Positions 12,105-20,954 of a DNA stretch of 64,000 nt are shown piece by piece. The position numbers were made by a program, and so were the translations under genes. The stretch is from Clostridiales bacterium Firm_16 (GTDB lineage: Bacteria > Bacillota > Clostridia > Saccharofermentanales > Saccharofermentanaceae): NCBI GenBank assembly GCA_001604185.1, contig LVAV01000098.1, forward strand, positions 46,999 to 110,998. The letters run 5' to 3'. Position 1 is the first letter of the stretch, and each line of letters opens with the position of its first letter. A model generated the notes under the pieces. That model was not told the origin of the DNA. It did no database searches and saw only the letters and a program-made list of their open reading frames with translations.

Positions 12105-12301
12105 ATTCCCTCCATTGACTGATAAACAAAAGAGCGGGCCAAAACCCACTCTCATGAATCAACTACTCTAGCAACGGTAATATGATAACACTTATATATT
12201 ATATTAGCAAGCGTTTTCCCGAAAAAGTAAGGATCCGACAACTCTTTCTCCTTTTTTGTTTTATTTACACAAGTTTAACCAATTTTTTGTATCATTTGCT
12301 A

Positions 12302-12330
12302 TTCAAATTATCCAAGATATCATGTAGAAT
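12302..12330 (+). promoter_or_regulatory. Candidate promoter (TTCAAA-17 nt incl. TG-TAGAAT)
   Basis: The sequence reads aTTCAAAttatccaagatatcaTGTAGAATag, about 50 nt upstream of the 12383 start. Confidence 0.3.
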
Positions 12331-12382
12331 AGTATTAATCCAAAAGGTGTTGGATAATCAACAAAACAAGGAGATGATGCCA

Positions 12383-12787
12383 ATGATAAAGGTAATTGCA
12401 GGAGAAAAGGGAACAGGAAAGACAGCCCAGCTGGTTGAGGATATCAATGAGCAGGCAACAACAGACAACAACATCGTATGCATCCAGCGCGGACACCGCC
12501 TCGACAGACTTTTGAAGTACAGAGTCCGCCTCGTAGACTTAGATGAATATCCGGTAGAAGGTTTCGAACAGTTCTTGAGTTTCGTAGCCGGTATTTGTGC
12601 CAAGGACTATGACGTTACACACATTTACGTAGACAGCATCCTGAAGATCACAGGAGAAACAGATTACGAAAGATTTGGAGCTTTCCTTGATAAGTTCAAT
12701 TCTTTCCTGGGGGACAAAATTACAGCGACAATCATCTGCAGCCGCGCGGCTGACGTTCTTCCTGAGAGCGTAACCAAGTACTGCTGA
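12383..12787 (+). CDS. Small P-loop protein, function unknown
   Basis: Walker A AGEKGTGKT near the N-terminus. I chose the start at the third ATG (MIKVIAG), 9 nt after AAGGAG. The long upstream extension in the track (from 12182) lies in AT-rich promoter-like DNA. Confidence 0.6.
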   Translation: MIKVIAGEKGTGKTAQLVEDINEQATTDNNIVCIQRGHRLDRLLKYRVRLVDLDEYPVEGFEQFLSFVAGICAKDYDVTHIYVDSILKITGETDYERFGAFLDKFNSFLGDKITATIICSRAADVLPESVTKYC

Positions 12788-12936: not shown

Positions 12937-14694
12937 TTATAGGTGAATAAGTTCACTGAACGATGCAACATCCATCTCGCCCAGTTCCTGCTTTCCTTCT
13001 TCCGCATCGCGGCTTCGGACAGACATGGAGTGATTCTTCATCTCCGTCTCTCCCACCACGATGATGTACGGCACTTTCTCCATTCTTGCCGCGCGGATCT
13101 TGTAACCCAGTTTCTCATCCGATTCGTCAAGTTCCACACGTACATCCTTCTCACTCAGTTCAGAAGCCAAGGACTTAGCATATGCAAGATACTTGTCCGA
13201 TACCGGAAGGATCTTTGCCTGTACCGGAGAAAGCCATACCGGGAATTTTCCTGCATAGTGTTCGATCAGGATGCCGAGGAAACGGTCAATGGAACCAAAC
13301 ACGACACGGTGCAGCATGATTGGTCTGTGCTTCTCGCCATCTTGTCCGATGTAGTCGAGATCAAATCTCTGTGGAAGTTGGAAATCCAGCTGGATCGTGC
13401 CGCATTGCCACGTTCTTCCGATGGAGTCCTTGATATGGAAGTCCAGCTTCGGTCCGTAAAAAGCTCCGTCGCCTTCGTTGATGGCATAGGGTTTTCCAAC
13501 CCCTTCCACAGCGGACTTAAGTGAGTTGATCGCCAGTTCCCATTCTTCATCACTGCCAATGGAATTCTCCGGTCTCGTAGACAGTTCGATCTCATACTTA
13601 AATCCGAATCGTCCATAGAACTCATCGATCAGACGCATGACACCCTGGATCTCTGATTCCACCTGGTCTTCCCGCATAAAGATATGGGCATCATCCTGCG
13701 TGAAACATCTGGCGCGCATCAGGCCATGGAGCGTACCCGACTTTTCTGCGCGGTGCACGATACCAAGCTCACCGACACGCATCGGGAATTCTTTGTAAGA
13801 ATGCTGCTTGGATTTATAAACCAGCATACCGCCCGGACAGTTCATGGGTTTGATCGCATAATCCATATCGTCCACACTCGTCGTATACATATTCTCTCTG
13901 TAGTGATCCCAGTGACCGGATTTTTCCCAGAGCGATCTCACCAGCATGATCGGCGTACTGATCTCCTGATACCCTTCTCTTCTATGGATCTTTCTCCAGT
14001 AGTCGATCAGAAGATTCTTCATCATGAGTCCCTTCGGGAAATAAAACGGAAGTCCCGGACCTTCATCCATCAACGCGAAAAGCTCTAGTTCTTTGCCCAG
14101 TTTTCTATGATCTCTTGCACGCGCTTCCTCGAGCTGGTGCAGGTATTCTTCCAGCATAGAAGCCTTCGGGAACGAGATTCCATAGATTCTCGTGAGCATC
14201 GGGTTATGCTCGTCACCGCGCCAGTAGGCTCCCGCTACCGAGAGAAGCTTAATCGCCTTAATGTGACTGACGTTCCCGATATGCGGTCCGGCACAGAACT
14301 CAGCATAATCCCCCTGTTTATAGAACGTGATACGTACATCTTCCGGCATCTCGCGGATCAGTTCCATCTTGAAGGACTCATTTCTTTCTTCCATGTACGC
14401 ATACGCTTCGTCTTTACTTACCTCGTACACCTGAAGTGAAAGCGATTCTTTCACGATCTCTTTCATCTTCTCTTCCACTGCACGAAGATGTTCTTCGGAG
14501 AAAGGGAAACCGAAATCGAAGTCATAGTAGAATCCGTTCTCGATCGCAGGACCGATGGCGCACTTTGCCTCCGGATACAGACGCTTCACCGCCTGCGCCA
14601 GAACATGTGCACTCGTGTGCCAGAAAGCCTTTTTCCCTTCTTTGCTTTCAAATGCCGCTTCCAAAACCTGTTGATCATTCAATAAAATCTTCAT
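12937..14694 (-). CDS. thrS: Threonine--tRNA ligase, lacking the N-terminal TGS domain
   Basis: Editing-domain HTSAHVLAQAVKRLYP, class II catalytic motifs (FPMRVGELGIVHRAEKSG, RCFTQDDAHIF, QCGTIQLDF) and an anticodon-binding C-terminus. I chose the start at ATG 14694, preceded by AAGGAGG. Confidence 0.9.
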   Translation of the reverse strand: MKILLNDQQVLEAAFESKEGKKAFWHTSAHVLAQAVKRLYPEAKCAIGPAIENGFYYDFDFGFPFSEEHLRAVEEKMKEIVKESLSLQVYEVSKDEAYAYMEERNESFKMELIREMPEDVRITFYKQGDYAEFCAGPHIGNVSHIKAIKLLSVAGAYWRGDEHNPMLTRIYGISFPKASMLEEYLHQLEEARARDHRKLGKELELFALMDEGPGLPFYFPKGLMMKNLLIDYWRKIHRREGYQEISTPIMLVRSLWEKSGHWDHYRENMYTTSVDDMDYAIKPMNCPGGMLVYKSKQHSYKEFPMRVGELGIVHRAEKSGTLHGLMRARCFTQDDAHIFMREDQVESEIQGVMRLIDEFYGRFGFKYEIELSTRPENSIGSDEEWELAINSLKSAVEGVGKPYAINEGDGAFYGPKLDFHIKDSIGRTWQCGTIQLDFQLPQRFDLDYIGQDGEKHRPIMLHRVVFGSIDRFLGILIEHYAGKFPVWLSPVQAKILPVSDKYLAYAKSLASELSEKDVRVELDESDEKLGYKIRAARMEKVPYIIVVGETEMKNHSMSVRSRDAEEGKQELGEMDVASFSELIHL

Positions 14695-14744: not shown

Positions 14745-14985
14745 CATAAGAAAAGCACCCCAAAGATCACCTCGATCTTAAGGGTGCACTAATGCACGGT
14801 TCCACCTTAACTTTTCACTTCAGATTCCAACAAATCCTAGCCTTTAACGCAGACATACGGTAACACTTACTGTTATTTCAGCATTACAGCTCGGGAATGG
14901 TTTTCGTCCGCTATCCTCATAAGTGACTTCCACCATATGTCACTCTCTCTGGCTGATTCACTACGGACTACTCTTTTCCGTCAAT
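14745..14985 (-). promoter_or_regulatory. T-box leader (Thr, specifier ACC) with terminator/antiterminator
   Basis: The minus strand shows, in order: AGAGAG, GGTGGAAGT in the distal region, and a specifier-loop-like GACGAAAACCA (ACC followed by a purine). Next comes the T-box sequence AAGGTGGAACCGTGC, then the terminator GCACCC...GGGGTGC followed by TTTTCTT (stem 14754-14789). Confidence 0.8.
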
Positions 14986-15008
14986 GCTTTTCTTATGTTA
15001 TTATGCTG

Positions 15009-15038
15009 ATAGTAGCAGAAGATTCCTGCTCGTGTCAA
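15009..15038 (-). promoter_or_regulatory. Candidate promoter of the thrS leader (TTGACA-18 nt-TACTAT)
   Basis: The minus strand reads cggcTTGACAcgagcaggaatcttctgcTACTATcagc, directly upstream of the T-box leader. Confidence 0.45.
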
Positions 15039-15146
15039 GCCGATCCATACATGAAAACTGTTGAAAAAATCAGAGCTGATTTCCCATCAGAGAATCACCA
15101 TTCCAAAGCACAAGTAAATACTGGCGCATCTGCAAGGATTTGCGTA

Positions 15147-15220
15147 GCACATTATTGCACACTCGAATTCGGTTTAGCACAGACTGAGTAATAAAATAAT
15201 AACGTCTCAGCGCGTTTACG
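15147..15220. repeat. Direct repeat copy 1 flanking the AT-rich islet
   Basis: gcacattattgcacactcGaattcGGtttagcacagactgag ... agcgcgtttacg. The 42-nt block differs from the copy at 19418 at 3 positions. A divergent A-rich spacer follows, then an identical 12-mer. Confidence 0.75.
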
Positions 15221-15247
15221 GCTCCTACATATTTCCAAAGTGCACCT

Positions 15248-15907
15248 TCATCTACCTGATAACTCCTTTTTCCTTTTTTGTAAAAGGATAAAGTACAATA
15301 CAAACCACAAGACAATACTACTCGAGATTGAAATCACAAACGCTTTCGGATGAAACAGTTTCGGGCGCGTAACCTCTTCAATACTCGTCCATTCAACAGG
15401 AATCTCCATTAGTTCACCATGGGAGGCATAGGTAACAAATTGACCAGACAAATCTCCATCAACTGAATATACACTTTTCAGATGACCACTTTCAATAGTA
15501 GATGCTGTAACAAAGATATCGAAATTCTGTGGGTTGGCAGAGATATCTCTCAGCACTGAAGTCAACTGCTCCTCTGACATATATGAATCGGGATCGTTGG
15601 GCAAATTGATTCTGCTGTTTTCTATATCGATAAGGGCGGGTACATAAACGATTATCGTGCTTTCACTCCGTATCCATTTGTATGTCCATCCCACACTAGA
15701 GGTGCATTTTTCAACTAACAGTTTTTCTTTGTCGTCCACACTCAAGTAATACACCGGCGCTTCAGAGGCGAGTGAAAAATTTGCTCGCGTTACAATTTCA
15801 TCCGGACTGATTAATTGTTTTATTTCCTTCGAAATAAAGATAGAATATAAAGCCAATCCAAGCAAACTACAGAGGATGACATTAGTCAGCATTCTTGTTT
15901 TTCCCAC
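15248..15907 (-). CDS. Hypothetical bitopic membrane protein (TM helix at each end)
   Basis: 219-aa ORF with a GTG start preceded by GAGAGG at 8 nt. It has an N-terminal hydrophobic helix (LTNVILCSLLGLALYSIFI) and a C-terminal helix (ISISSSIVLWFVLYFILL) followed by a KRKK stop-transfer. It begins 24 nt after the large upstream gene. Confidence 0.6.
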   Translation of the reverse strand: MGKTRMLTNVILCSLLGLALYSIFISKEIKQLISPDEIVTRANFSLASEAPVYYLSVDDKEKLLVEKCTSSVGWTYKWIRSESTIIVYVPALIDIENSRINLPNDPDSYMSEEQLTSVLRDISANPQNFDIFVTASTIESGHLKSVYSVDGDLSGQFVTYASHGELMEIPVEWTSIEEVTRPKLFHPKAFVISISSSIVLWFVLYFILLQKRKKELSGR

Positions 15908-15931
15908 TTTACTGACCTCTCTTTCAACAAA

Positions 15932-18900
15932 TCACTGAAAATATGGAAGTGGCGGAAACCTATCCCCATACGACGTCACAACTACCCCACTTGCTGTATC
16001 AGAGAACGAATTATACGTTCCATAATCGTCCCCCCAAAATCTTGTCGAATAGCAATAGCCAAACTTATAACCAGTTTTCCCAGACCATGCAAAGACAACA
16101 CTGACAGATTTATGTTTAGCGAACTCTTTGGCAATACAAGTCCTTCCTAGTCCTCGATGATAGCCATCTCGTCCAGTAAAACAGACCTGAATATCTAAAA
16201 AACGCACTTCACACAACTGAGTTAATTTTCCTAAAACATCTTCAGATCTCAATGTTACATCACTTGCCATGCAATCAAAATCTATGGAGTTTTCATTATT
16301 GCCATGTGCAATAATCACACATGATTCGACACTAGAATAAGCAATTTTCTCACTTAACTGCTCTTTCTCCAAATCACAAGTCAAATGATTGAGCACATAC
16401 CATGGAACTTCATAAGAATAAAAATCTTTTTCCAATTCATCATATACCACTTTAACTTTCTCGCTCAGAGGGCTGTTTTCCCATATGTCGATTACCACAA
16501 CATTTTTGTCTTTGGCTTTAAACGCATTGATATATGGTTGTCTCATACGACTTAAAGAATCTTCCCCAGGATTATCTTTTCCAATTAATATGTAATTGAT
16601 TGTCCCATTCTTGCGTCTCGGTGTCGCATCCTCTCCATCATTGGCATGATCTCCATCCGTATCAGTTTCACTCGGATCAGAAATCACACTGTAAATTACC
16701 CAATCTCCCTGTCCAAAGCCGGCAAACGTAAGATAATTAGTATCATTTGAGTAAACCGGCTCGCCATCTACAGTAACATTTCCATGGTCATCCACAGACA
16801 GCTTGATCTCCGCACCCATTTCTTCTCTATCTGGTACACTGTCCTTGTCAGAATTTGGCTTTTCAGGATCAGAGTGATATATTGTGCCATTTGTTCCTAC
16901 CATTCCTTTATCTTCAGCAATATCAAGCAGACCGTCTTTATCTCCATCTGCGCCTTGATTCAGAAGGTATAGACGACAAAATTCATCATATGGGTTTTCC
17001 ACTCTATCACAGTCTATCAGACCACCTCTGGAATTAGCGTTGAAGATACTTATCGCATCAGATGAATAAGAACTATCAGGAAGTTCGAACAGATAGGTTG
17101 ACGGATATCCCCATCCGCTCAACTTTTTTATCCCGTCCGCAAGCATTGCTGCTCGTCCAGAATAAGAATAGGACAGTTTATTCTGGAAAATGACGGAAAC
17201 AATCTCATGCGAATCAAGAAATTTAATTCTGTTATCCAGATGAGGGGCTATAAAAAGCCAAGAAACCTCTCCACTTCCGGTCATACCACTCACAGAAGGA
17301 CAATAACTACTAATGCTTTCGTAAATGGATTTAAGTTCCGCCTTATCATTTATCGGATCCCAACCATTTTGCGTGTAATTACCAAAAACCCAGTTCATGC
17401 TCCAATCTACAAATTGAATACGATCAAATGGACGAAGATTATCAATGAATTGATATACGATTTCTGTCTGAGCGTTTAGTTGCTCACTCGACATTGTGTC
17501 GTCATATTGAACGCAAAGTACGTAATCAATTCCTCTGGATAGACCATTACTATCCGGATTTGTTGCTCTGTTTTGGCCATGTCTTTGAAGTTCATATGTC
17601 CAACGATAGTTCCATGCAACTTTCCAGTAAAGCATATACTCGCTGAAATGAGTAGTTTGGCAGGAAACCGTATTGTTATTCGTATCTACGGTTGCACCAC
17701 AATCTACAAAGAGCCCACTTTCTTCGTCGTACCAAAGAATACCCAAATCCTCTTCTCTAAACTCTTCATCGCATGTACTATCTTCAAGATTCATACTTTC
17801 TGTAGATAACTTAGTCTCGTCATAGTGAAAAGTGATCGTTGCTTCATCAAAGCTACCCTCATATTCGATACTGACAGGAACACCTACGAGGCTTACGAGG
17901 TCACTGCAGTATGAATCTTCGTTATACATATCCTTAATGGTCATAGCAGAACCCAGGCATCCTGTACCTGTAAGAGATACCTCAACTTTGTTAACCACAG
18001 GTCTTTCCGTATCTTCTATCACTTCACTTCGTACCTGAGGAAAGCGCTCCTGTCCATCCGGGATTCCGTCTCCATCACTATCATTACTCGTCGGACTTAA
18101 TCCAAGTTTTAGTTCATCTCCGTCTTCGATACCGTCTCCGTCTGTATCCTCATTAAGAGGATCTGTTCCATACATATGGATCTCCTCGCCATCCGAGATT
18201 CCATCAACATCAGAATCATCAGTCCACGTATAGGTTTCATGTTCGATTTCTTCCGCTAACGTCAGTCCATCACTGTCGTCATCTTCCTGCGAATCCGGAA
18301 TACCGTCGCCATCCGAATCGGCGGAAAGAGGATCCATACCCAATGCTACTTCCACACCATCTTCAATCCCGTCGTTGTCAGAATCCTTGGAATTCGGATC
18401 TGTTCCGAGTTGTTTCTCATAATAGTCCGGTACTCCGTCACCATCTGTGTCCAGTTCAAGATCAATATCCGGATCATCCTGTTGCTGTCCTTGTCCAACA
18501 CGCTCCAGAATATCGGCTATACCGTTATTGTTCTCATCCTGAGTCAGCATTATAGGATAAGTAATCGTTCTTACGGAAAGAAGTGTCAGCTGCAAGCCTG
18601 TTCCTTCTCCTCCATTGAAAGTTAAGGGAAGACTGGAATGCCCTTCGATATTTGCATTATTACCATTGTTGGAAAGTGTATAGCTCCCATCTTCATCCTG
18701 AGTAAGGATAGCATTGGATACTTCCGTTATCGGTCGGTTTGATGAAAAACGGATCGTCCAGTCCATGATCGGGAAATCAACATTGCTTTTCAGGGTAAGA
18801 CTTCCATTACAGCCTTGTCCCCAATCTGAATACAACTGTGTATTCACAGAGAGTGAAGATAGTTCTAATTCAAAAGTGTTCGTATTCAGGAACATAAAAG

Positions 18901-19327
18901 TAGGTATATCACTTACAGCCGATCCATCCGTCGATTTCACGGTCATACCGAAGGAAACCTTCTGGTTAGGGAGGATATCCATATTATGTCCACCGTTCAT
19001 GACGGTATACATATTATTCGCATGTTCGATAAGATTAGCTCCCCAGATTCCTTCTATCTCGTAAGGAAGATTGAAAGAAACAAACCAGTTATGGATCGTT
19101 TTCTCTCCGGTATTTGTGATCTCAAACTGAAGATTCGCATGATCCCCCCAGGAAGATGTAGTAGAAACCTGGGAAGATATTGAAAGATCTTCCTGATAAG
19201 AATAACAGTTGTCAATTGAAACGGTATTATCTGCCAAGACTGACGGATGGGATGCAGAAACTAGGATCGTCATGGCCAGGATTAGACTAACGAGTCGGAA
19301 AAGAGATACTCTTTTACATATAGACAA
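15932..19327 (-). CDS. Secreted 1131-aa multidomain protein: signal peptide, two CBM2-like modules, TSP3-type calcium-binding repeats, unknown middle, C-terminal His/Cys domain
   Basis: The signal peptide is MSICKRVSLFRLVSLILAMTILVSASHPSVLA-DN. Two modules show the W.G....L.F.I.N.G...I..W pattern. There are at least 8 DxDxDGxxDxxE repeats (for example DTDGDGVPDYYE, DSDNDGIEDGVE, DSDGDGIPDSQE). The start is a TTG with no obvious SD, so it is uncertain. Confidence 0.8.
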   Translation of the reverse strand: MSICKRVSLFRLVSLILAMTILVSASHPSVLADNTVSIDNCYSYQEDLSISSQVSTTSSWGDHANLQFEITNTGEKTIHNWFVSFNLPYEIEGIWGANLIEHANNMYTVMNGGHNMDILPNQKVSFGMTVKSTDGSAVSDIPTFMFLNTNTFELELSSLSVNTQLYSDWGQGCNGSLTLKSNVDFPIMDWTIRFSSNRPITEVSNAILTQDEDGSYTLSNNGNNANIEGHSSLPLTFNGGEGTGLQLTLLSVRTITYPIMLTQDENNNGIADILERVGQGQQQDDPDIDLELDTDGDGVPDYYEKQLGTDPNSKDSDNDGIEDGVEVALGMDPLSADSDGDGIPDSQEDDDSDGLTLAEEIEHETYTWTDDSDVDGISDGEEIHMYGTDPLNEDTDGDGIEDGDELKLGLSPTSNDSDGDGIPDGQERFPQVRSEVIEDTERPVVNKVEVSLTGTGCLGSAMTIKDMYNEDSYCSDLVSLVGVPVSIEYEGSFDEATITFHYDETKLSTESMNLEDSTCDEEFREEDLGILWYDEESGLFVDCGATVDTNNNTVSCQTTHFSEYMLYWKVAWNYRWTYELQRHGQNRATNPDSNGLSRGIDYVLCVQYDDTMSSEQLNAQTEIVYQFIDNLRPFDRIQFVDWSMNWVFGNYTQNGWDPINDKAELKSIYESISSYCPSVSGMTGSGEVSWLFIAPHLDNRIKFLDSHEIVSVIFQNKLSYSYSGRAAMLADGIKKLSGWGYPSTYLFELPDSSYSSDAISIFNANSRGGLIDCDRVENPYDEFCRLYLLNQGADGDKDGLLDIAEDKGMVGTNGTIYHSDPEKPNSDKDSVPDREEMGAEIKLSVDDHGNVTVDGEPVYSNDTNYLTFAGFGQGDWVIYSVISDPSETDTDGDHANDGEDATPRRKNGTINYILIGKDNPGEDSLSRMRQPYINAFKAKDKNVVVIDIWENSPLSEKVKVVYDELEKDFYSYEVPWYVLNHLTCDLEKEQLSEKIAYSSVESCVIIAHGNNENSIDFDCMASDVTLRSEDVLGKLTQLCEVRFLDIQVCFTGRDGYHRGLGRTCIAKEFAKHKSVSVVFAWSGKTGYKFGYCYSTRFWGDDYGTYNSFSDTASGVVVTSYGDRFPPLPYFQ

Positions 19328-19336
19328 GAGATGACA

Positions 19337-19390
19337 TTGATTGCTTGATTGCTTGATTGATTGCTTGATTGATTGCTTGGATTCTTGCTT
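19337..19390. repeat. Tandem TTGATTGC / TTGATTGATTGC microsatellite-like array
   Basis: ttgattgc ttgattgc ttgattgattgc ttgattgattgc ttggattc ttgc, starting 10 nt upstream of the TTG start of the 1131-aa gene. Confidence 0.8.
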
Positions 19391-19417
19391 TCGTACATTA
19401 TTTTAACCTCACTTCCG

Positions 19418-19495
19418 GCACATTATTGCACACTCAAATTCATTTTAGCACAGACTGAGCGTTAAAACAAAAAAGCATGTCGAAGCGCGTTTACG
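19418..19495. repeat. Direct repeat copy 2 flanking the AT-rich islet
   Basis: gcacattattgcacactcAaattcATtttagcacagactgag ... agcgcgtttacg. See copy 1 at 15147. Confidence 0.75.
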
Positions 19496-19554
19496 CAGGG
19501 CGAAGCCCGAGTACCGGCGCTGAGACATGTTTTTTGTTCGATTGAGTGCTGTTT

Positions 19555-19594
19555 TAACTAAAACAAGGACTGCTTCATTTCTGAAGCAGTCCTT
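19555..19594 (-). terminator. Rho-independent terminator of the SPFH operon
   Basis: Perfect 13-bp stem aaggactgcttca/tgaagcagtcctt with a 4-nt loop. It is followed on the minus strand by GTTTTAGTT and lies 35 nt after the stop at 19629. Confidence 0.7.
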
Positions 19595-19628
19595 GGAATC
19601 TACAATTCGGATCAAATCCTTAAGTGGA

Positions 19629-20954
19629 TCAAGCCTTTGCCTTACCGCACTCACCGCAGAACTTACCGGTGTTGCCTGTTTTACCGCAGGAGCATGTCCA
19701 TGTGCCATCATCTGCCGGCTTAGCTCCGCCACAGTTAGAGCAGAACTTACCCTTATTACCGGTCTGACCGCAGGAGCATGTCCAACCTGCATCCTCAACC
19801 GGCTTTGCACCACCGCAGTTAGCGCAGAACTTGCCCTGGTTGCCTGTCTGGCCGCAGGAACATGTCCAGCCTGCTGCTGCCGGAGCAGCTGCCGCTGCCT
19901 GCTGCTGTTGCTGCTGCATCATCTGCTGCTGCTGCAAGAATGCCATACCCTGATTGCCAGGATTTATTCCGCTTGCACCGAAACCACCAACGAGACCAAC
20001 GCCCATCATGGTGTTGCCTGCGCCTGCCTGGTTACCTGCAGCGGTCTTCATAGCATCCACAGAACCCTTGACCTGGTAACCGGCAGCCATGTTCGGGTTG
20101 TTACCAAACATGAGACCATCGTCCATAGCCTCGATTCTCTCTCTGGACTTCTCGTCCGGAGTAACGGACATAACAGCAACCTGCTCAACGATCATACCAC
20201 GACCCTGGAGCCAATCTTCGTCCAGAACTTCGTTCATGTATTTAGCAAGCTTAACCTGCTGGGACTGAATGCGGTTGTACTGAACGCCTTCTCCGCCGGC
20301 ACCCATCTTGTTGAGTGCTTCGCCGAGGTACATCAGGAACTCAGCTTTGCCCTGACCAGGCTGACCATTCTTACCCATCAGTTCATCACGACGATACTCG
20401 CTGGAAACGTTACCGGCGATCTTCTTGAAGAATGTAACCGGATCAACGATCTTGAAAGAGAAAGTACCGTTCATGCGGATATAGATACCACGATATGTCG
20501 GATCATCATAAGCCAACGGAGCAGCTGTACCGAACTTGTTGTCCAGGATCTCCAGCATGTTTACGAAGTAAACTCTCTGCTGTGTCAGCGGCTCACCACC
20601 GGCCTTAATACGGCTCCAGATATCTGCGCAGGACTTCTTAACGCCATCGAGGAATCCGCTTGTGCCGAAGCAAGAAGGTGCGGAGGATGTATCCCAAGTA
20701 TACATACCTGCCTCAGTTGTAAAATCAACAACACGTCCATTATCTACCAGGATCAATGCTGTTCCCTCCGGAACTGCGATCTTAGATCCGTTCGAGATGA
20801 TTTCCGCATCACCCTTGTTGCTACCATTACGTACGACTTTCGCACCGCGACGGAGCAAAACTTCCTGGCCCAGTGAATCACATGTGAAGAACTCGAGGTA
20901 CTGATCTCTTAAGTTTCCACCAACGGCCTGAATTGCAGCTTTAATTAAGCCCAT
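19629..20954 (-). CDS. SPFH-type protein (YdjI / virion-core-protein-like family) with poly-Q linker and three C-terminal zinc ribbons
   Basis: The N-terminal ~300 aa resemble B. subtilis YdjI-type SPFH proteins (GLIKAAI...V.NGS.I.V.EG....V.NG...D....G.Y). A QQQQMMQQQQQQAAAAA linker follows, then three WTCSCG.TGN.GKFC..CG repeats. A strong RBS (GGGAGGAG) is present. Confidence 0.75.
   Translation of the reverse strand: MGLIKAAIQAVGGNLRDQYLEFFTCDSLGQEVLLRRGAKVVRNGSNKGDAEIISNGSKIAVPEGTALILVDNGRVVDFTTEAGMYTWDTSSAPSCFGTSGFLDGVKKSCADIWSRIKAGGEPLTQQRVYFVNMLEILDNKFGTAAPLAYDDPTYRGIYIRMNGTFSFKIVDPVTFFKKIAGNVSSEYRRDELMGKNGQPGQGKAEFLMYLGEALNKMGAGGEGVQYNRIQSQQVKLAKYMNEVLDEDWLQGRGMIVEQVAVMSVTPDEKSRERIEAMDDGLMFGNNPNMAAGYQVKGSVDAMKTAAGNQAGAGNTMMGVGLVGGFGASGINPGNQGMAFLQQQQMMQQQQQQAAAAAPAAAGWTCSCGQTGNQGKFCANCGGAKPVEDAGWTCSCGQTGNKGKFCSNCGGAKPADDGTWTCSCGKTGNTGKFCGECGKAKA
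19632..19871. repeat. Three tandem 84/84/72-nt coding repeats (zinc-ribbon modules)
   Basis: GWTCSCGQTGNQGKFCANCGGAKPVEDA / GWTCSCGQTGNKGKFCSNCGGAKPADDG / TWTCSCGKTGNTGKFCGECGKAKA. The similarity is also visible at the nucleotide level. Confidence 0.85.

What the first reader, a model, noticed from the sequence alone, without database searches (positions are those of the whole stretch)
15147..19495. AT-rich two-gene islet between thrS and the SPFH operon, bracketed by a ~75-nt imperfect direct repeat
Seen in the sequence: the block gcacattattgcacactc[G/A]aattc[GG/AT]tttagcacagactgag occurs at both 15147 and 19418 in the same orientation. Each copy is followed by a short A-rich spacer and the identical 12-mer agcgcgtttacg. 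The repeats bracket exactly two minus-strand genes (219 aa and 1131 aa). Their DNA is visibly more AT-rich than the flanks: my spot counts of single 60-nt lines gave roughly 30-45% GC inside versus about 50-60% in infB. These genes also lack the long codon-aligned antisense ORFs typical of the core genes here. There is no integrase, transposase or tRNA at the borders. Inference: a horizontally acquired cassette inserted by recombination that duplicated, or used, this ~75-nt sequence. The alternative is a duplicated regulatory or terminator module.
Basis: partly seen in the sequence, partly recalled or inferred. Interest (0 to 1): 0.65.

Follow-up and report, generated by a model that had tools for sequence, protein, structure and literature searches.

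The report
Acquired surface-protein islet with leftover promoter copy
The AT-rich two-gene block upstream of thrS really is foreign DNA gained by this rumen-type Lachnospiraceae lineage, but the 75-nt repeat did not mediate the insertion; it is most likely the big gene's own upstream terminator/promoter piece, with a second orphan copy left after the gene's tail and its partner gene were swapped.

Summary
A 74/78-nt direct repeat lies at 15147-15220 and 19418-19495: a 42-mer matching 39/42, a divergent T-rich spacer, and an identical 12-mer. None is expected by chance. The DNA between the copies is the lowest-GC stretch of the window (40.9% against 49.9%).

Eight contigs from four related lineages carry an empty site, where a 58-nt terminator joins the SPFH gene directly to the thrS promoter. 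None holds any copy of the repeat. The true islet is 15042-19618, about 105-125 nt wider on each side, with no target duplication, integrase, transposase or tRNA.

The closest relative, L084, shares the islet and its right junction but lacks repeat copy A. Against L084 the 1131-aa protein is 94% identical over its first 910 residues and only 36% in its C-terminal His/Cys (caspase-like) domain. The downstream membrane-protein gene is 28% identical. Copy A abuts a 45-nt remnant of the L084-type partner gene.

So copy B is the half-terminator plus probable promoter just 5' of the big gene. Copy A is an orphan copy left by a module replacement.

In passing: a CAAT/CAAG tract between the SD-ATG and the signal peptide looks like a phase-variation switch.

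The parts
15042..19618 (-). Inserted islet (4577 nt, 40.9% GC). It replaces the 58-nt SPFH terminator that empty-site relatives have between the SPFH stop codon and the thrS -35 box.
   Evidence: BLASTN against L081 loses homology at window 19619 and regains it at 15041. The junction sequences were read directly.
19564..19595 (-). Strong hairpin plus T-run just after the SPFH stop codon. It serves as the SPFH terminator in islet-bearing genomes and differs in sequence from the terminator at empty sites.
   Evidence: Terminator scan found 14 pairs. It also appears in the RNA fold. Compared with empty sites.
19469..19529 (-). Hairpin 2: CATGTCTCAGCGC...GCGCTTCGACATG, flanked by A6 and T6, which looks like a bidirectional terminator. 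Its loop and 3' arm begin repeat copy B.
   Evidence: The RNA fold of 19400-19630 has z = -5.9, and the stem is present in both the MFE and centroid structures. Sequence read.
19418..19495 (-). Repeat copy B. It comprises the 12-mer CGTAAACGCGCT (hairpin-2 loop and 3' arm), a T-rich spacer and the 42-mer. The 42-mer carries two extended -10-like motifs: TGcTAAAAT at 19450-19442, with TTGTTT 17 nt upstream, and TGcAATAAT at 19430-19422. It also holds three TGTGC pentamers. Copy B ends 8 nt before the SD GAGG.
   Evidence: establish the repeat. The promoter-like motifs were read from the sequence and are an inference; the strict scan did not call them.
19336..19387 (-). Tract of 11 CAAG/CAAT tetranucleotide units. 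It lies between the SD-ATG (GAGG 19410-19407, ATG 19398) and the signal-peptide coding part of the big ORF. ATG 19398 is out of frame and gives a 38-aa uORF ending at 19282. A change of +4 or -8 nt would fuse it to the big ORF.
   Evidence: TRF and frame analysis. L084 has pure (CAAT)>=7 here, and its contig ends inside the tract.
15932..19327 (-). The 1131-aa secreted protein. It has a signal peptide, CBM2-like domains, bacterial TSP3 calcium-binding repeats, a middle domain, and a C-terminal domain of about 220 aa with an invariant His-Gly...Cys motif. It is a mosaic: 19363-16564 is about 94% identical to L084, and 16563-15932 is below 50%.
   Evidence: Pfam, protein comparison, sliding identity, N-terminal versus C-terminal identities, invariant H129/C170, AF2 model with pLDDT 88.6, and weak clan-CD fold hits.
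15248..15907 (-). The 219-aa partner protein, with hydrophobic segments at both ends and no known family. It is 28% identical to the 258-aa protein of L084. Similarly placed genes of 218, 250 and 223 aa, unrelated by BLAST, follow family members at other loci.
15147..15220 (-). Repeat copy A, an orphan copy of the hairpin-2 3' arm, T-rich spacer and 42-mer. It lacks the 5' arm and does not fold. Its 3' arm GCGCTGAGAC is the exact complement of copy B's 5' arm GTCTCAGCGC, so it descends from a complete hairpin.
   Evidence: (z = +0.6). The same junctions are present in the independent contig L090 (97% identity).
15102..15146 (-). A 45-nt remnant of an L084-type 258-aa partner gene, covering codons of about 40-55. 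It reads TQILADAPVFTCALE, against TKILADAPVFICTLD in L084.
   Evidence: BLASTN of 15146-15102 against L084 3557-3601 gives 88.9% identity. Sequences.
15042..15099 (-). Right end of the islet, shared with L084. It holds the last 13 nt of the L084-type partner gene (15099-15087), a weak hairpin with T6 (15082-15064), and a spacer up to the thrS -35 box. Relative to L084, 600 nt (L084 3602-4201) are missing.
15009..15038 (-). The thrS sigma-A-type promoter, TTGACA-18-TACTAT. It is conserved at empty sites.
14777..14993 (-). T-box leader of thrS.
   Evidence: Rfam RF00230 scores 116 bits against a gathering score of 93, E = 8e-26.
12937..14694 (-). thrS (585 aa, starting at ATG 14694).
   Evidence: Pfam, start codon and SD read, homologues.
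19629..20954 (-). SPFH/Band-7 protein (441 aa), the last gene of the upstream conserved operon.
   Evidence: Pfam. Synteny holds in L081, L086, L087 and L095.

Best explanation
The window comes from an uncultured Lachnospiraceae-type Firmicute related to ruminant-gut MAGs. In the common ancestor of this genome and of L084, a 4.6-kb low-GC operon was inserted between the SPFH operon and the thrS promoter. It replaced the 58-nt SPFH terminator and left no target duplication. No recombinase gene was found among the neighbouring ORFs tested.

The operon encodes two proteins. The first is a secreted CBM2/TSP3-repeat protein with a C-terminal His/Cys, probably caspase-like (clan CD), domain. The second is a small membrane protein.

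The 75-nt repeat is not an insertion scar. Copy B is the stretch between the loop of a terminator hairpin and the ribosome-binding site of the big gene. That makes it the hairpin's 3' arm and T-run plus the probable promoter/operator of the operon.

Copy A is a truncated second copy of that same 5' region. It lies downstream of the partner gene and directly abuts a 45-nt remnant of a different (L084-type) partner gene.

The most economical history is that a block of about 1.4 kb was exchanged by recombination with a second module of the same family. That block holds the C-terminal domain, the partner gene and the next module's 5' region. The second module was either a tandem neighbour later destroyed by deletions or imported DNA. 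Either way, an orphan promoter piece and gene debris were left in front of thrS.

Shown here: the boundaries, the empty sites, the mosaic structure, the remnant, and the truncation of copy A. Inferred: promoter function of the 42-mer, the tandem-versus-import history, and the biochemical role of the proteins.
For: Empty sites and direction of change
- Empty sites with identical architecture (SPFH stop, 58-nt terminator, thrS -35 box) occur in L081/82/83/98, L095, L096 and L086/87.
- On the thrS tree the occupied genomes are monophyletic and the empty genomes are outgroups.
- No copy of the repeat occurs in any empty-site locus, or in 97 fetched loci totalling 1.56 Mb, apart from the orthologous copy A in L090.
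- Islet limits are 19618 and 15042. GC is 40.9% against 49.9%, and GC3 is 0.35-0.39 against 0.53-0.61.

Evidence for a module exchange
- L084 shares the right junction but has an intact 258-aa gene and no copy A.
- Identity to L084 drops abruptly at about 16563-16560, from 84-100% to below 50%, and recovers only at 15146.
- The N-terminal 910 aa are 93.8% identical to L084, but the C-terminal domain is 36%. That is no closer than to family members whose N-terminal regions are only 44-48% identical.
- The partner proteins are 28% identical.

Evidence that copy A is a truncated relic
- Copy A abuts the 45-nt remnant of the L084-type gene, followed by a 600-nt deletion.
- Copy A lacks the 5' hairpin arm and has no significant fold. 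Copy B sits in a strong hairpin.
- An independent assembly, L090, reproduces the copy-A junctions.

Evidence that the repeat is the gene's 5' region
- Copy B ends 8 nt before the SD GAGG and ATG 19398.
- The same two-gene module occurs at unrelated loci. In L097 two paralogous big genes lie 4.7 kb apart on one contig, and their upstream 110 nt are about 80% identical. This shows that repeated 5' regions accompany arrays of this family.
Against: - No transcript data exist. The strict promoter scan did not call a promoter in copy B, so the proposed -35 (TTGTTT) and extended -10 elements are my own reading of the sequence.
- The left junction and copy B could not be seen in any other genome, because the L084 contig ends in the tetranucleotide tract. 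Conservation of copy B is therefore untested.
- Both boundaries of copy A are breakpoints, and a further 600-nt deletion is needed. The history therefore requires at least three non-homologous events, and tandem decay cannot be told apart from imported DNA.
- No donor carrying this C-terminal domain plus the 219-aa gene was found. The only 219-aa homologue is L090.
- The two 42-mers are much better conserved (39/42) than the spacer between the blocks. That could mean copy A is still under selection rather than being a passive relic.
- Only 64 kb of the genome was available, so further copies elsewhere are not excluded.
Confidence: 0.68

Rival explanations
1. One reading: the 75-nt repeats are recombination sites or a duplication created when the cassette was inserted. 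They would be an att-like or long target-site duplication bracketing the mobile unit.
For: The two copies are in direct orientation and flank exactly the two foreign genes. Composition inside is foreign.
Against: - Empty sites contain no copy, whereas one would be expected.
- The insertion boundaries lie 105 and 123 nt outside the repeats.
- L084 has the same islet and right junction without copy A.
- Copy A is flanked by a remnant of a displaced gene rather than by host sequence.
- No integrase, transposase or tRNA was found: no tRNA in the window, and no such domain in the neighbouring ORFs tested.
- The copies are about 80% identical overall with indels, which is older than expected for a scar of the same event. 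The N-terminal gene parts of the window and L084 differ by only 6%.
Confidence: 0.04
2. The 42-mer is a dispersed multi-copy element, or the operator of a regulon, that sits independently at both places. It could be a transcription-factor site with three phased TGTGC boxes. Copy A would then be kept because it regulates something, for example read-through toward the thrS leader or a short transcript ending at the weak terminator at 15082-15064.
For: - Block-wise conservation: 12/12 and 39/42 identical, flanking a spacer that is poorly conserved and differs in length.
- TGTGC occurs three times at 20- and 10-nt spacing (sequence).
- Copy A is conserved at 97% in L090.
Against: - Only two copies occur in 64 kb.
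- The motif pattern has no match in GTDB species representatives, JGI metagenomes or IMG/VR.
- It is absent upstream of the paralogous modules in L091, L094 and L097.
- Copy A also carries the adjacent half-hairpin and T-run, which an independent operator would not.
- thrS has its own promoter and T-box, conserved in relatives that lack the repeat.
- The first -10-like motif is damaged in copy A: TAAACC against TAAAAT.
Confidence: 0.12
3. The repeat and the patchwork around copy A are an artefact of metagenome assembly, that is, a chimeric join of reads from co-occurring strains with different alleles.
For: The source appears to be a MAG-like contig. Related contigs break inside repeats, as L084 does in the tetranucleotide tract. 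L090 shows odd deletions in the T-box.
Against: The string of 219-aa gene, 27 nt, copy A, 45-nt remnant and last 13 nt is reproduced at 97-98% identity in an independent assembly from another sample, with its own point differences (L090). The reading frames of both genes are intact. The breakpoint inside the big gene preserves the frame and the domain boundary.
Confidence: 0.03

Closest known systems
C-terminal displacement and orphan modules in polymorphic toxin loci (Rhs and CdiA-CT/CdiI; see Koskiniemi et al. 2014, PMC3967940, and the review PMC9086364)
   Same: A large secreted protein with a conserved N-terminal body (94% identity) and an abruptly divergent C-terminal domain (36%). The small gene immediately downstream is replaced along with it. 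Debris of the displaced downstream gene remains 3' of the new module. Arrays of related modules with homologous segments exist elsewhere (L097).
   Different: The C-terminal domains belong to one fold with the same invariant His/Cys rather than to unrelated toxin folds. No toxin family, no Rhs/YD, LXG, WXG or filamentous-haemagglutinin delivery domain, and no T5/T6/T7 secretion genes were found; there is only a Sec-type signal peptide. The partner is a membrane protein of unknown function, and immunity is untested. The duplicated segment here is intergenic (terminator/promoter), not a piece of the toxin's coding region.
Genomic islets, meaning small strain- or lineage-specific insertions between conserved core genes without mobility genes
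   Same: 4.6 kb in size, with a compositional anomaly, a clean empty site in sister lineages, no integrase, tRNA or target duplication, and replacement of a short native spacer.
   Different: Nothing essential. This is an ordinary example, apart from the internal mosaic and the orphan promoter copy.
Simple-sequence contingency loci, such as Haemophilus influenzae lic1 (CAAT)n and Neisseria opa (CTCTT)n in the signal-peptide region (from my own knowledge)
   Same: A tetranucleotide CAAT-type tract lies between the SD-ATG and the signal peptide of a surface protein. The frame depends on the number of units. The tract differs between close relatives, being mixed CAAG/CAAT x11 in the window and pure CAAT in L084.
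   Different: The host is a Gram-positive anaerobe. The tract is imperfect in the window. No population-level length variation was observed, and the alternative TTG start is not excluded.
Myxococcus CglD / MtsD-type TSP3-repeat surface adhesins (NCBIfam NF033765, NF047639)
   Same: They share calcium-binding bacterial thrombospondin type-3 repeats and an extracellular location.
   Different: Scores of 71 and 37 bits are far below the family cut-offs of 400 and 800. The similarity is limited to the repeats, and the domain architecture is different.

Membership tests
Integrase-mediated genomic island (att direct repeats) | The direct repeat is present once at the empty site (attB) | tested here: not met
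   Eight empty-site contigs carry no copy.
Integrase-mediated genomic island (att direct repeats) | A tyrosine or serine recombinase gene, or a tRNA/tmRNA target, at a border | tested here: not met
   There is no tRNA or tmRNA in the window. Pfam and NCBIfam scans of the islet genes and nine neighbouring ORFs found no recombinase.
Integrase-mediated genomic island (att direct repeats) | The repeats coincide with the ends of the inserted DNA | tested here: not met
   The insert is 15042-19618, while the repeats are at 15147-15220 and 19418-19495.
IS / transposon / MITE insertion | Terminal inverted repeats, a short target-site duplication and a transposase | tested here: not met
   No inverted repeat was reported at the ends. 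The junction sequences show no duplication. No transposase domain was found.
Dispersed intergenic repeat (REP/MITE-like) | Many copies at unrelated sites, and a palindromic structure | tested here: inconclusive
   Two copies occur in 64 kb. There are none in 1.56 Mb of related loci except the orthologous copy in L090, and none in three public collections by motif pattern. Copy A has no significant fold. The rest of this genome was not available.
Polymorphic toxin / immunity locus | Conserved N-terminal region with an abruptly variable C-terminal domain | tested here: met
   93.8% against 36% identity to L084, with a sharp breakpoint near 16560.
Polymorphic toxin / immunity locus | The downstream small gene co-varies with the C-terminal domain | tested here: met
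   The 219-aa and 258-aa proteins are 28% identical and were replaced in the same block. This rests on one pair only.
Polymorphic toxin / immunity locus | The C-terminal domain is a recognised toxin, and the downstream protein neutralises it | not testable with these tools
   There is no Pfam, NCBIfam, PADLOC or PDB sequence match. The fold is only weakly caspase-like. Activity and immunity need experiments.
Polymorphic toxin / immunity locus | A dedicated delivery domain or secretion system (Rhs/YD, LXG/WXG-T7SS, TPS, T6SS) | tested here: not met
   Only CBM2 and TSP3 repeats and a signal peptide were found. The neighbours are SPFH-operon genes and thrS.
Clan CD (caspase-haemoglobinase fold) cysteine peptidase | A His...Cys dyad at the C-terminal ends of adjacent beta-strands, conserved in the family | tested here: met
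   H129 (followed by G130) and C170 are invariant in 24 sequences. In the AF2 model they follow strands 118-127 and 161-168.
Clan CD (caspase-haemoglobinase fold) cysteine peptidase | Significant structural similarity to solved members | tested here: inconclusive
   The top Foldseek hits are caspase-11, caspase-1, Csx29, PmC11, clostripain and separase. However, E-values are 7e-3 to 9e-2 and TM-scores only 0.29-0.37.
Simple-sequence contingency (phase-variable) locus | A short tandem repeat inside the 5' coding region whose unit number sets the reading frame | tested here: met
   The tract is 11 tetranucleotide units. ATG 19398, which has an SD, lies 71 nt from the ORF frame, so +4 or -8 nt restores the frame.
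Simple-sequence contingency (phase-variable) locus | Length variation of the tract within or between populations | tested here: inconclusive
   L084 has a different, pure CAAT tract, but its contig is cut inside it. No other sequence of this region was found.
T-box leader (RF00230) | Covariance-model score above the Rfam gathering threshold, upstream of an aminoacyl-tRNA synthetase gene | tested here: met
   116 bits against 93, full-length match at 14777-14993 directly upstream of thrS.

The most novel reading that the evidence does not exclude
The two-gene module could be an undescribed polymorphic surface or effector system of gut and rumen Clostridia. It would consist of a Sec-secreted, calcium- and carbohydrate-binding carrier with an exchangeable caspase-like C-terminal domain, paired with a cognate membrane partner acting as immunity or docking protein. 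The C-terminal domain and partner would be swapped as cassettes between modules, using the conserved body on one side and the module's 5' intergenic block (the 75-mer) on the other. Expression would be switched ON and OFF by slippage of a CAAT tract in the signal-peptide region.
Probability: 0.15. Interest if true: 0.6.

Novelty: new member of a known kind. Interest (0 to 1): 0.35.

Why it matters
For the scan, the case shows that a direct repeat flanking foreign genes need not be an insertion scar. Comparison with empty sites moved the boundaries outward and reassigned the repeat to the islet's own 5' control region. Biologically the islet itself is ordinary. Three things are of modest wider interest:

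- A widespread, unannotated two-gene module occurs in Lachnospiraceae/Clostridiales. It pairs a CBM2-TSP3 protein carrying a His/Cys domain with a membrane partner.
- Its C-terminal domain and partner are exchanged en bloc between close relatives.
- A CAAT-type tract may make the surface protein phase-variable, which is rarely documented in gut anaerobic Firmicutes.

All three are directly testable.

Tried and rejected
- Exact look-ups of the window's ThrS and SPFH proteins found nothing on record.
- A degenerate pattern of the repeat (22 specified bases) found nothing in GTDB species genomes, JGI metagenomes or IMG/VR. A dispersed element across known species is therefore unlikely, and no extra copies could be studied.
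- The 80 ThrS-related GTDB loci are at most 81% identical and not syntenic, so they were useless for the empty-site test. Closer relatives came from the protein database and contig look-ups.
- The islet has no BLASTN match in plasmid or phage collections.
- An integron attC reading was considered and dropped. The 12-mer does not fit the RYYYAAC/GTTRRRY core sites, and no integrase was found among the ORFs tested (my reading of the sequence).
- WalR/PhoP-type direct-repeat consensus sequences do not fit the TGTGC boxes (my own knowledge; not pursued).
- Extension of the repeat upstream of the 12-mer, suggested by the MAFFT alignment, is not significant.
- The 219-aa protein has a single database homologue and no family.
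- A pattern just 3' of the tetranucleotide tract found nothing in JGI metagenomes, so tract-length variation could not be surveyed.
- The literature search for TSP3 proteins in Lachnospiraceae returned nothing.

Full report
**Observation**

All genes of interest are on the minus strand. In the direction of transcription the order is:
- the SPFH/Band-7 gene (19629-20954)
- repeat copy B (19495-19418)
- a 1131-aa ORF (19327-15932)
- a 219-aa ORF (15907-15248)
- repeat copy A (15220-15147)
- the thrS promoter, T-box and thrS gene

The 42-mer occurs twice with 3 mismatches, against none expected. Local alignment delimits the repeat to exactly 15220-15147 and 19495-19418. Its score is 86, against a shuffle maximum of 30, and nothing significant lies beyond those limits. 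The repeat has three parts: an identical 12-mer, a poorly conserved T-rich spacer of 20 or 24 nt, and the 42-mer at 39/42 identity.

The region is the lowest-GC 4.6-kb stretch of the window. It is 40.9% GC against 49.9% for the rest, and GC3 is 0.35-0.39 against 0.53-0.61 in the neighbouring genes. There is no tRNA in the window, and Pfam and NCBIfam scans of the neighbouring ORFs found no integrase or transposase.

**Source organism and relatives**

The best GTDB species representative has only 81% ThrS identity (an uncultured Butyrivibrio MAG) and is not syntenic. The large protein database holds closer ThrS proteins at 88-97% identity. Their contigs come mostly from ruminant gut metagenome assemblies.

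**Empty sites**

Eight contigs have the SPFH gene followed directly by thrS: L081, L082, L083 and L098 (all one lineage), L095, L096, and L086/L087. In each, the SPFH stop codon is followed by about 12 nt, a 58-nt GAAGGCGTG...CACGCCTTC hairpin with a T-run, and then the thrS TTGACA box. None contains any trace of the repeat.

Against L081, homology stops at window 19619 and resumes at 15041. The inserted DNA is therefore 15042-19618. It is 4577 nt long, 123 and 105 nt wider than the repeats, and it replaced the native terminator without a target duplication.

A thrS neighbour-joining tree puts the window with L084/L085 at 93.9% DNA identity. The empty-site genomes are successive outgroups at 90, 88, 85 and 82%. 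The simplest reading is a single gain in the window and L084 lineage.

**The occupied relative**

L084 carries the islet with the same right-hand junction: 95% identity from window 15099 through thrS. It has a 1136-aa ORF and an intact 258-aa gene, but no copy A. The comparison is sharply mosaic:
- 19363-16564 is about 94% identical.
- From about 16560 down to 15147, identity falls below 50%.
- Identity recovers in two pieces. Window 15146-15102 matches L084 3557-3601, which is codons of about 40-55 of the 258-aa gene, at 89%.
- After a 600-nt deletion relative to L084, window 15099 onward matches L084 4202 onward.

At the protein level, the first 910 residues are 93.8% identical and the last 216 are 36%. 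That is no closer than to family members whose N-terminal regions are only 44-48% identical. The C-terminal domain was therefore replaced rather than diverging in place. The two downstream proteins are 28% identical.

Copy A sits exactly between the new 219-aa gene and the debris of the old 258-aa-type gene. The independent contig L090 reproduces the whole string (219-aa gene, 27 nt, copy A, remnant) at 97-98% identity. This argues against an assembly artefact.

**What the repeat is**

Copy B begins in the loop of a long hairpin, CATGTCTCAGCGC...GCGCTTCGACATG, flanked by A6 and T6. The fold has z = -5.9. This hairpin follows a first strong SPFH terminator at 19595-19564. Copy B runs through the 3' arm, the T-run and the 42-mer, and ends 8 nt before a GAGG ribosome-binding site and ATG 19398. 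It is thus the interval in which the operon's promoter must lie.

Two extended -10-like motifs are present. One is TGcTAAAAT, with TTGTTT 17 nt upstream. The other is TGcAATAAT. Three TGTGC boxes are also present. This is my reading of the sequence; the strict consensus scan did not call a promoter.

Copy A has only the 3' arm and no significant fold (z = +0.6). Its arm GCGCTGAGAC is the perfect complement of copy B's 5' arm GTCTCAGCGC, so it descends from a complete hairpin and is truncated on the left. On the right it is cut at the junction with the gene remnant.

Copy A is therefore an orphan fragment of a second module's 5' region. A parallel exists in L097. There, two paralogous big genes lie 4.7 kb apart on one contig, separated by a 223-aa partner-type gene and seven other small ORFs. 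The 110 nt upstream of the two big genes are about 80% identical.

Two histories fit the data and I cannot separate them:
- A tandem pair of modules, in which the second was destroyed by deletions. L084 would then be the product of homologous deletion between the conserved bodies.
- Import of a C-terminal domain, partner gene and 5'-region fragment from a diverged module.

**The genes**

The big protein has a signal peptide, CBM2-like domains and bacterial TSP3 repeats. It belongs to a family of proteins of 1000-1250 aa in Clostridiales, some with VWA domains. At other loci a small gene of similar size also follows the big gene, between unrelated neighbours; its product begins with a hydrophobic segment.

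The C-terminal domain has an invariant His-Gly and Cys across 24 sequences. A confident AF2 model (pLDDT 88.6) places both residues after adjacent strands. Its best PDB matches are caspases, Csx29, C11 peptidases and separase, but only weakly (E-values 7e-3 to 9e-2, TM-scores 0.29-0.37). No toxin, defence or other family matches.

The en-bloc exchange of the C-terminal domain and the partner gene resembles polymorphic toxin/immunity loci with orphan modules (PMC3967940, PMC9086364). Membership in that class is not established. The fold is the same in both alleles, no delivery system is present, and immunity is untested.

**Side observation**

A tract of 11 CAAG/CAAT units (19336-19387) lies between the SD-ATG (19398) and the signal-peptide region. 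The ORF's first possible start is a TTG with no ribosome-binding site. ATG 19398 is out of frame and gives a 38-aa uORF. One more unit or two fewer would fuse it to the big ORF. L084 has a pure (CAAT)n tract here, and its contig ends inside it. This looks like a slipped-strand ON/OFF switch with the window allele OFF. No population data could be obtained.

**Verdict**

The idea that the repeat mediated or marks the insertion is refuted. The case is an ordinary islet with a tidy internal history. Interest is modest and comes mainly from the uncharacterised module and the possible phase-variable tract.

Noticed in passing
window 19336-19410 (minus strand): A CAAG/CAAT tetranucleotide tract (11 units) sits between a good SD-ATG (GAGG 19410-19407, ATG 19398) and the signal-peptide part of the 1131-aa ORF. 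The ATG is out of frame and gives a 38-aa uORF ending at 19282. A change of +4 or -8 nt would put it in frame. L084 has pure (CAAT)>=7 there, and its contig breaks inside the tract. This is a possible slipped-strand phase-variation switch.
   Followed up: partly
L090 1-1673: An independent 1.7-kb contig carries the 219-aa gene (97% identity), copy A and the remnant. After that, the thrS promoter is deleted, the T-box has two internal deletions, and an IS200/IS605-type tnpA follows instead of thrS. It could be a decayed second copy of the region, a real rearrangement, or a chimeric assembly.
   Followed up: no
L084 6706-7728, L085 2227-3249, L095 11950-13599: The DNA just downstream of thrS also varies among these relatives. 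L084/L085 have an aldo-keto-reductase gene inserted there. L095 has Tox-GHH and DUF4417 genes. The thrS neighbourhood therefore seems to be a general hotspot for small insertions.
   Followed up: no
window 12182-12787 (+): This ORF between thrS and rimP is also low in GC (40.8%, GC3 0.47) and has no family. The DNA is nevertheless conserved in empty-site relatives (90% identity to L081), where a 134-aa gene is called. It is therefore not part of the islet.
   Followed up: partly
window 19645-19896: The C-terminus of the SPFH protein consists of three 84-nt (28-aa) repeats, each with WTCSCG...GKFCxxCG zinc-ribbon-like motifs. These are preceded by a Gln-rich, low-complexity stretch.
   Followed up: no
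L097 1795-13498: Two paralogous big genes (1154 and 1165 aa) lie on one contig. They are separated by a 223-aa partner-type gene and seven small ORFs. Four of these (82, 109, 117 and 123 aa) are paralogues of one another, and the three longer ones have a hydrophobic N-terminus. The layout resembles an array of the module family with possible orphan partner genes.
   Followed up: partly
L091 7600-7800: Two tandem direct repeats of about 90 nt (ggttcgcagattgttcgaaaaagagcagc...) lie in the 515-nt region upstream of the family member P0124. They are unrelated in sequence to the window's 75-mer.
   Followed up: no
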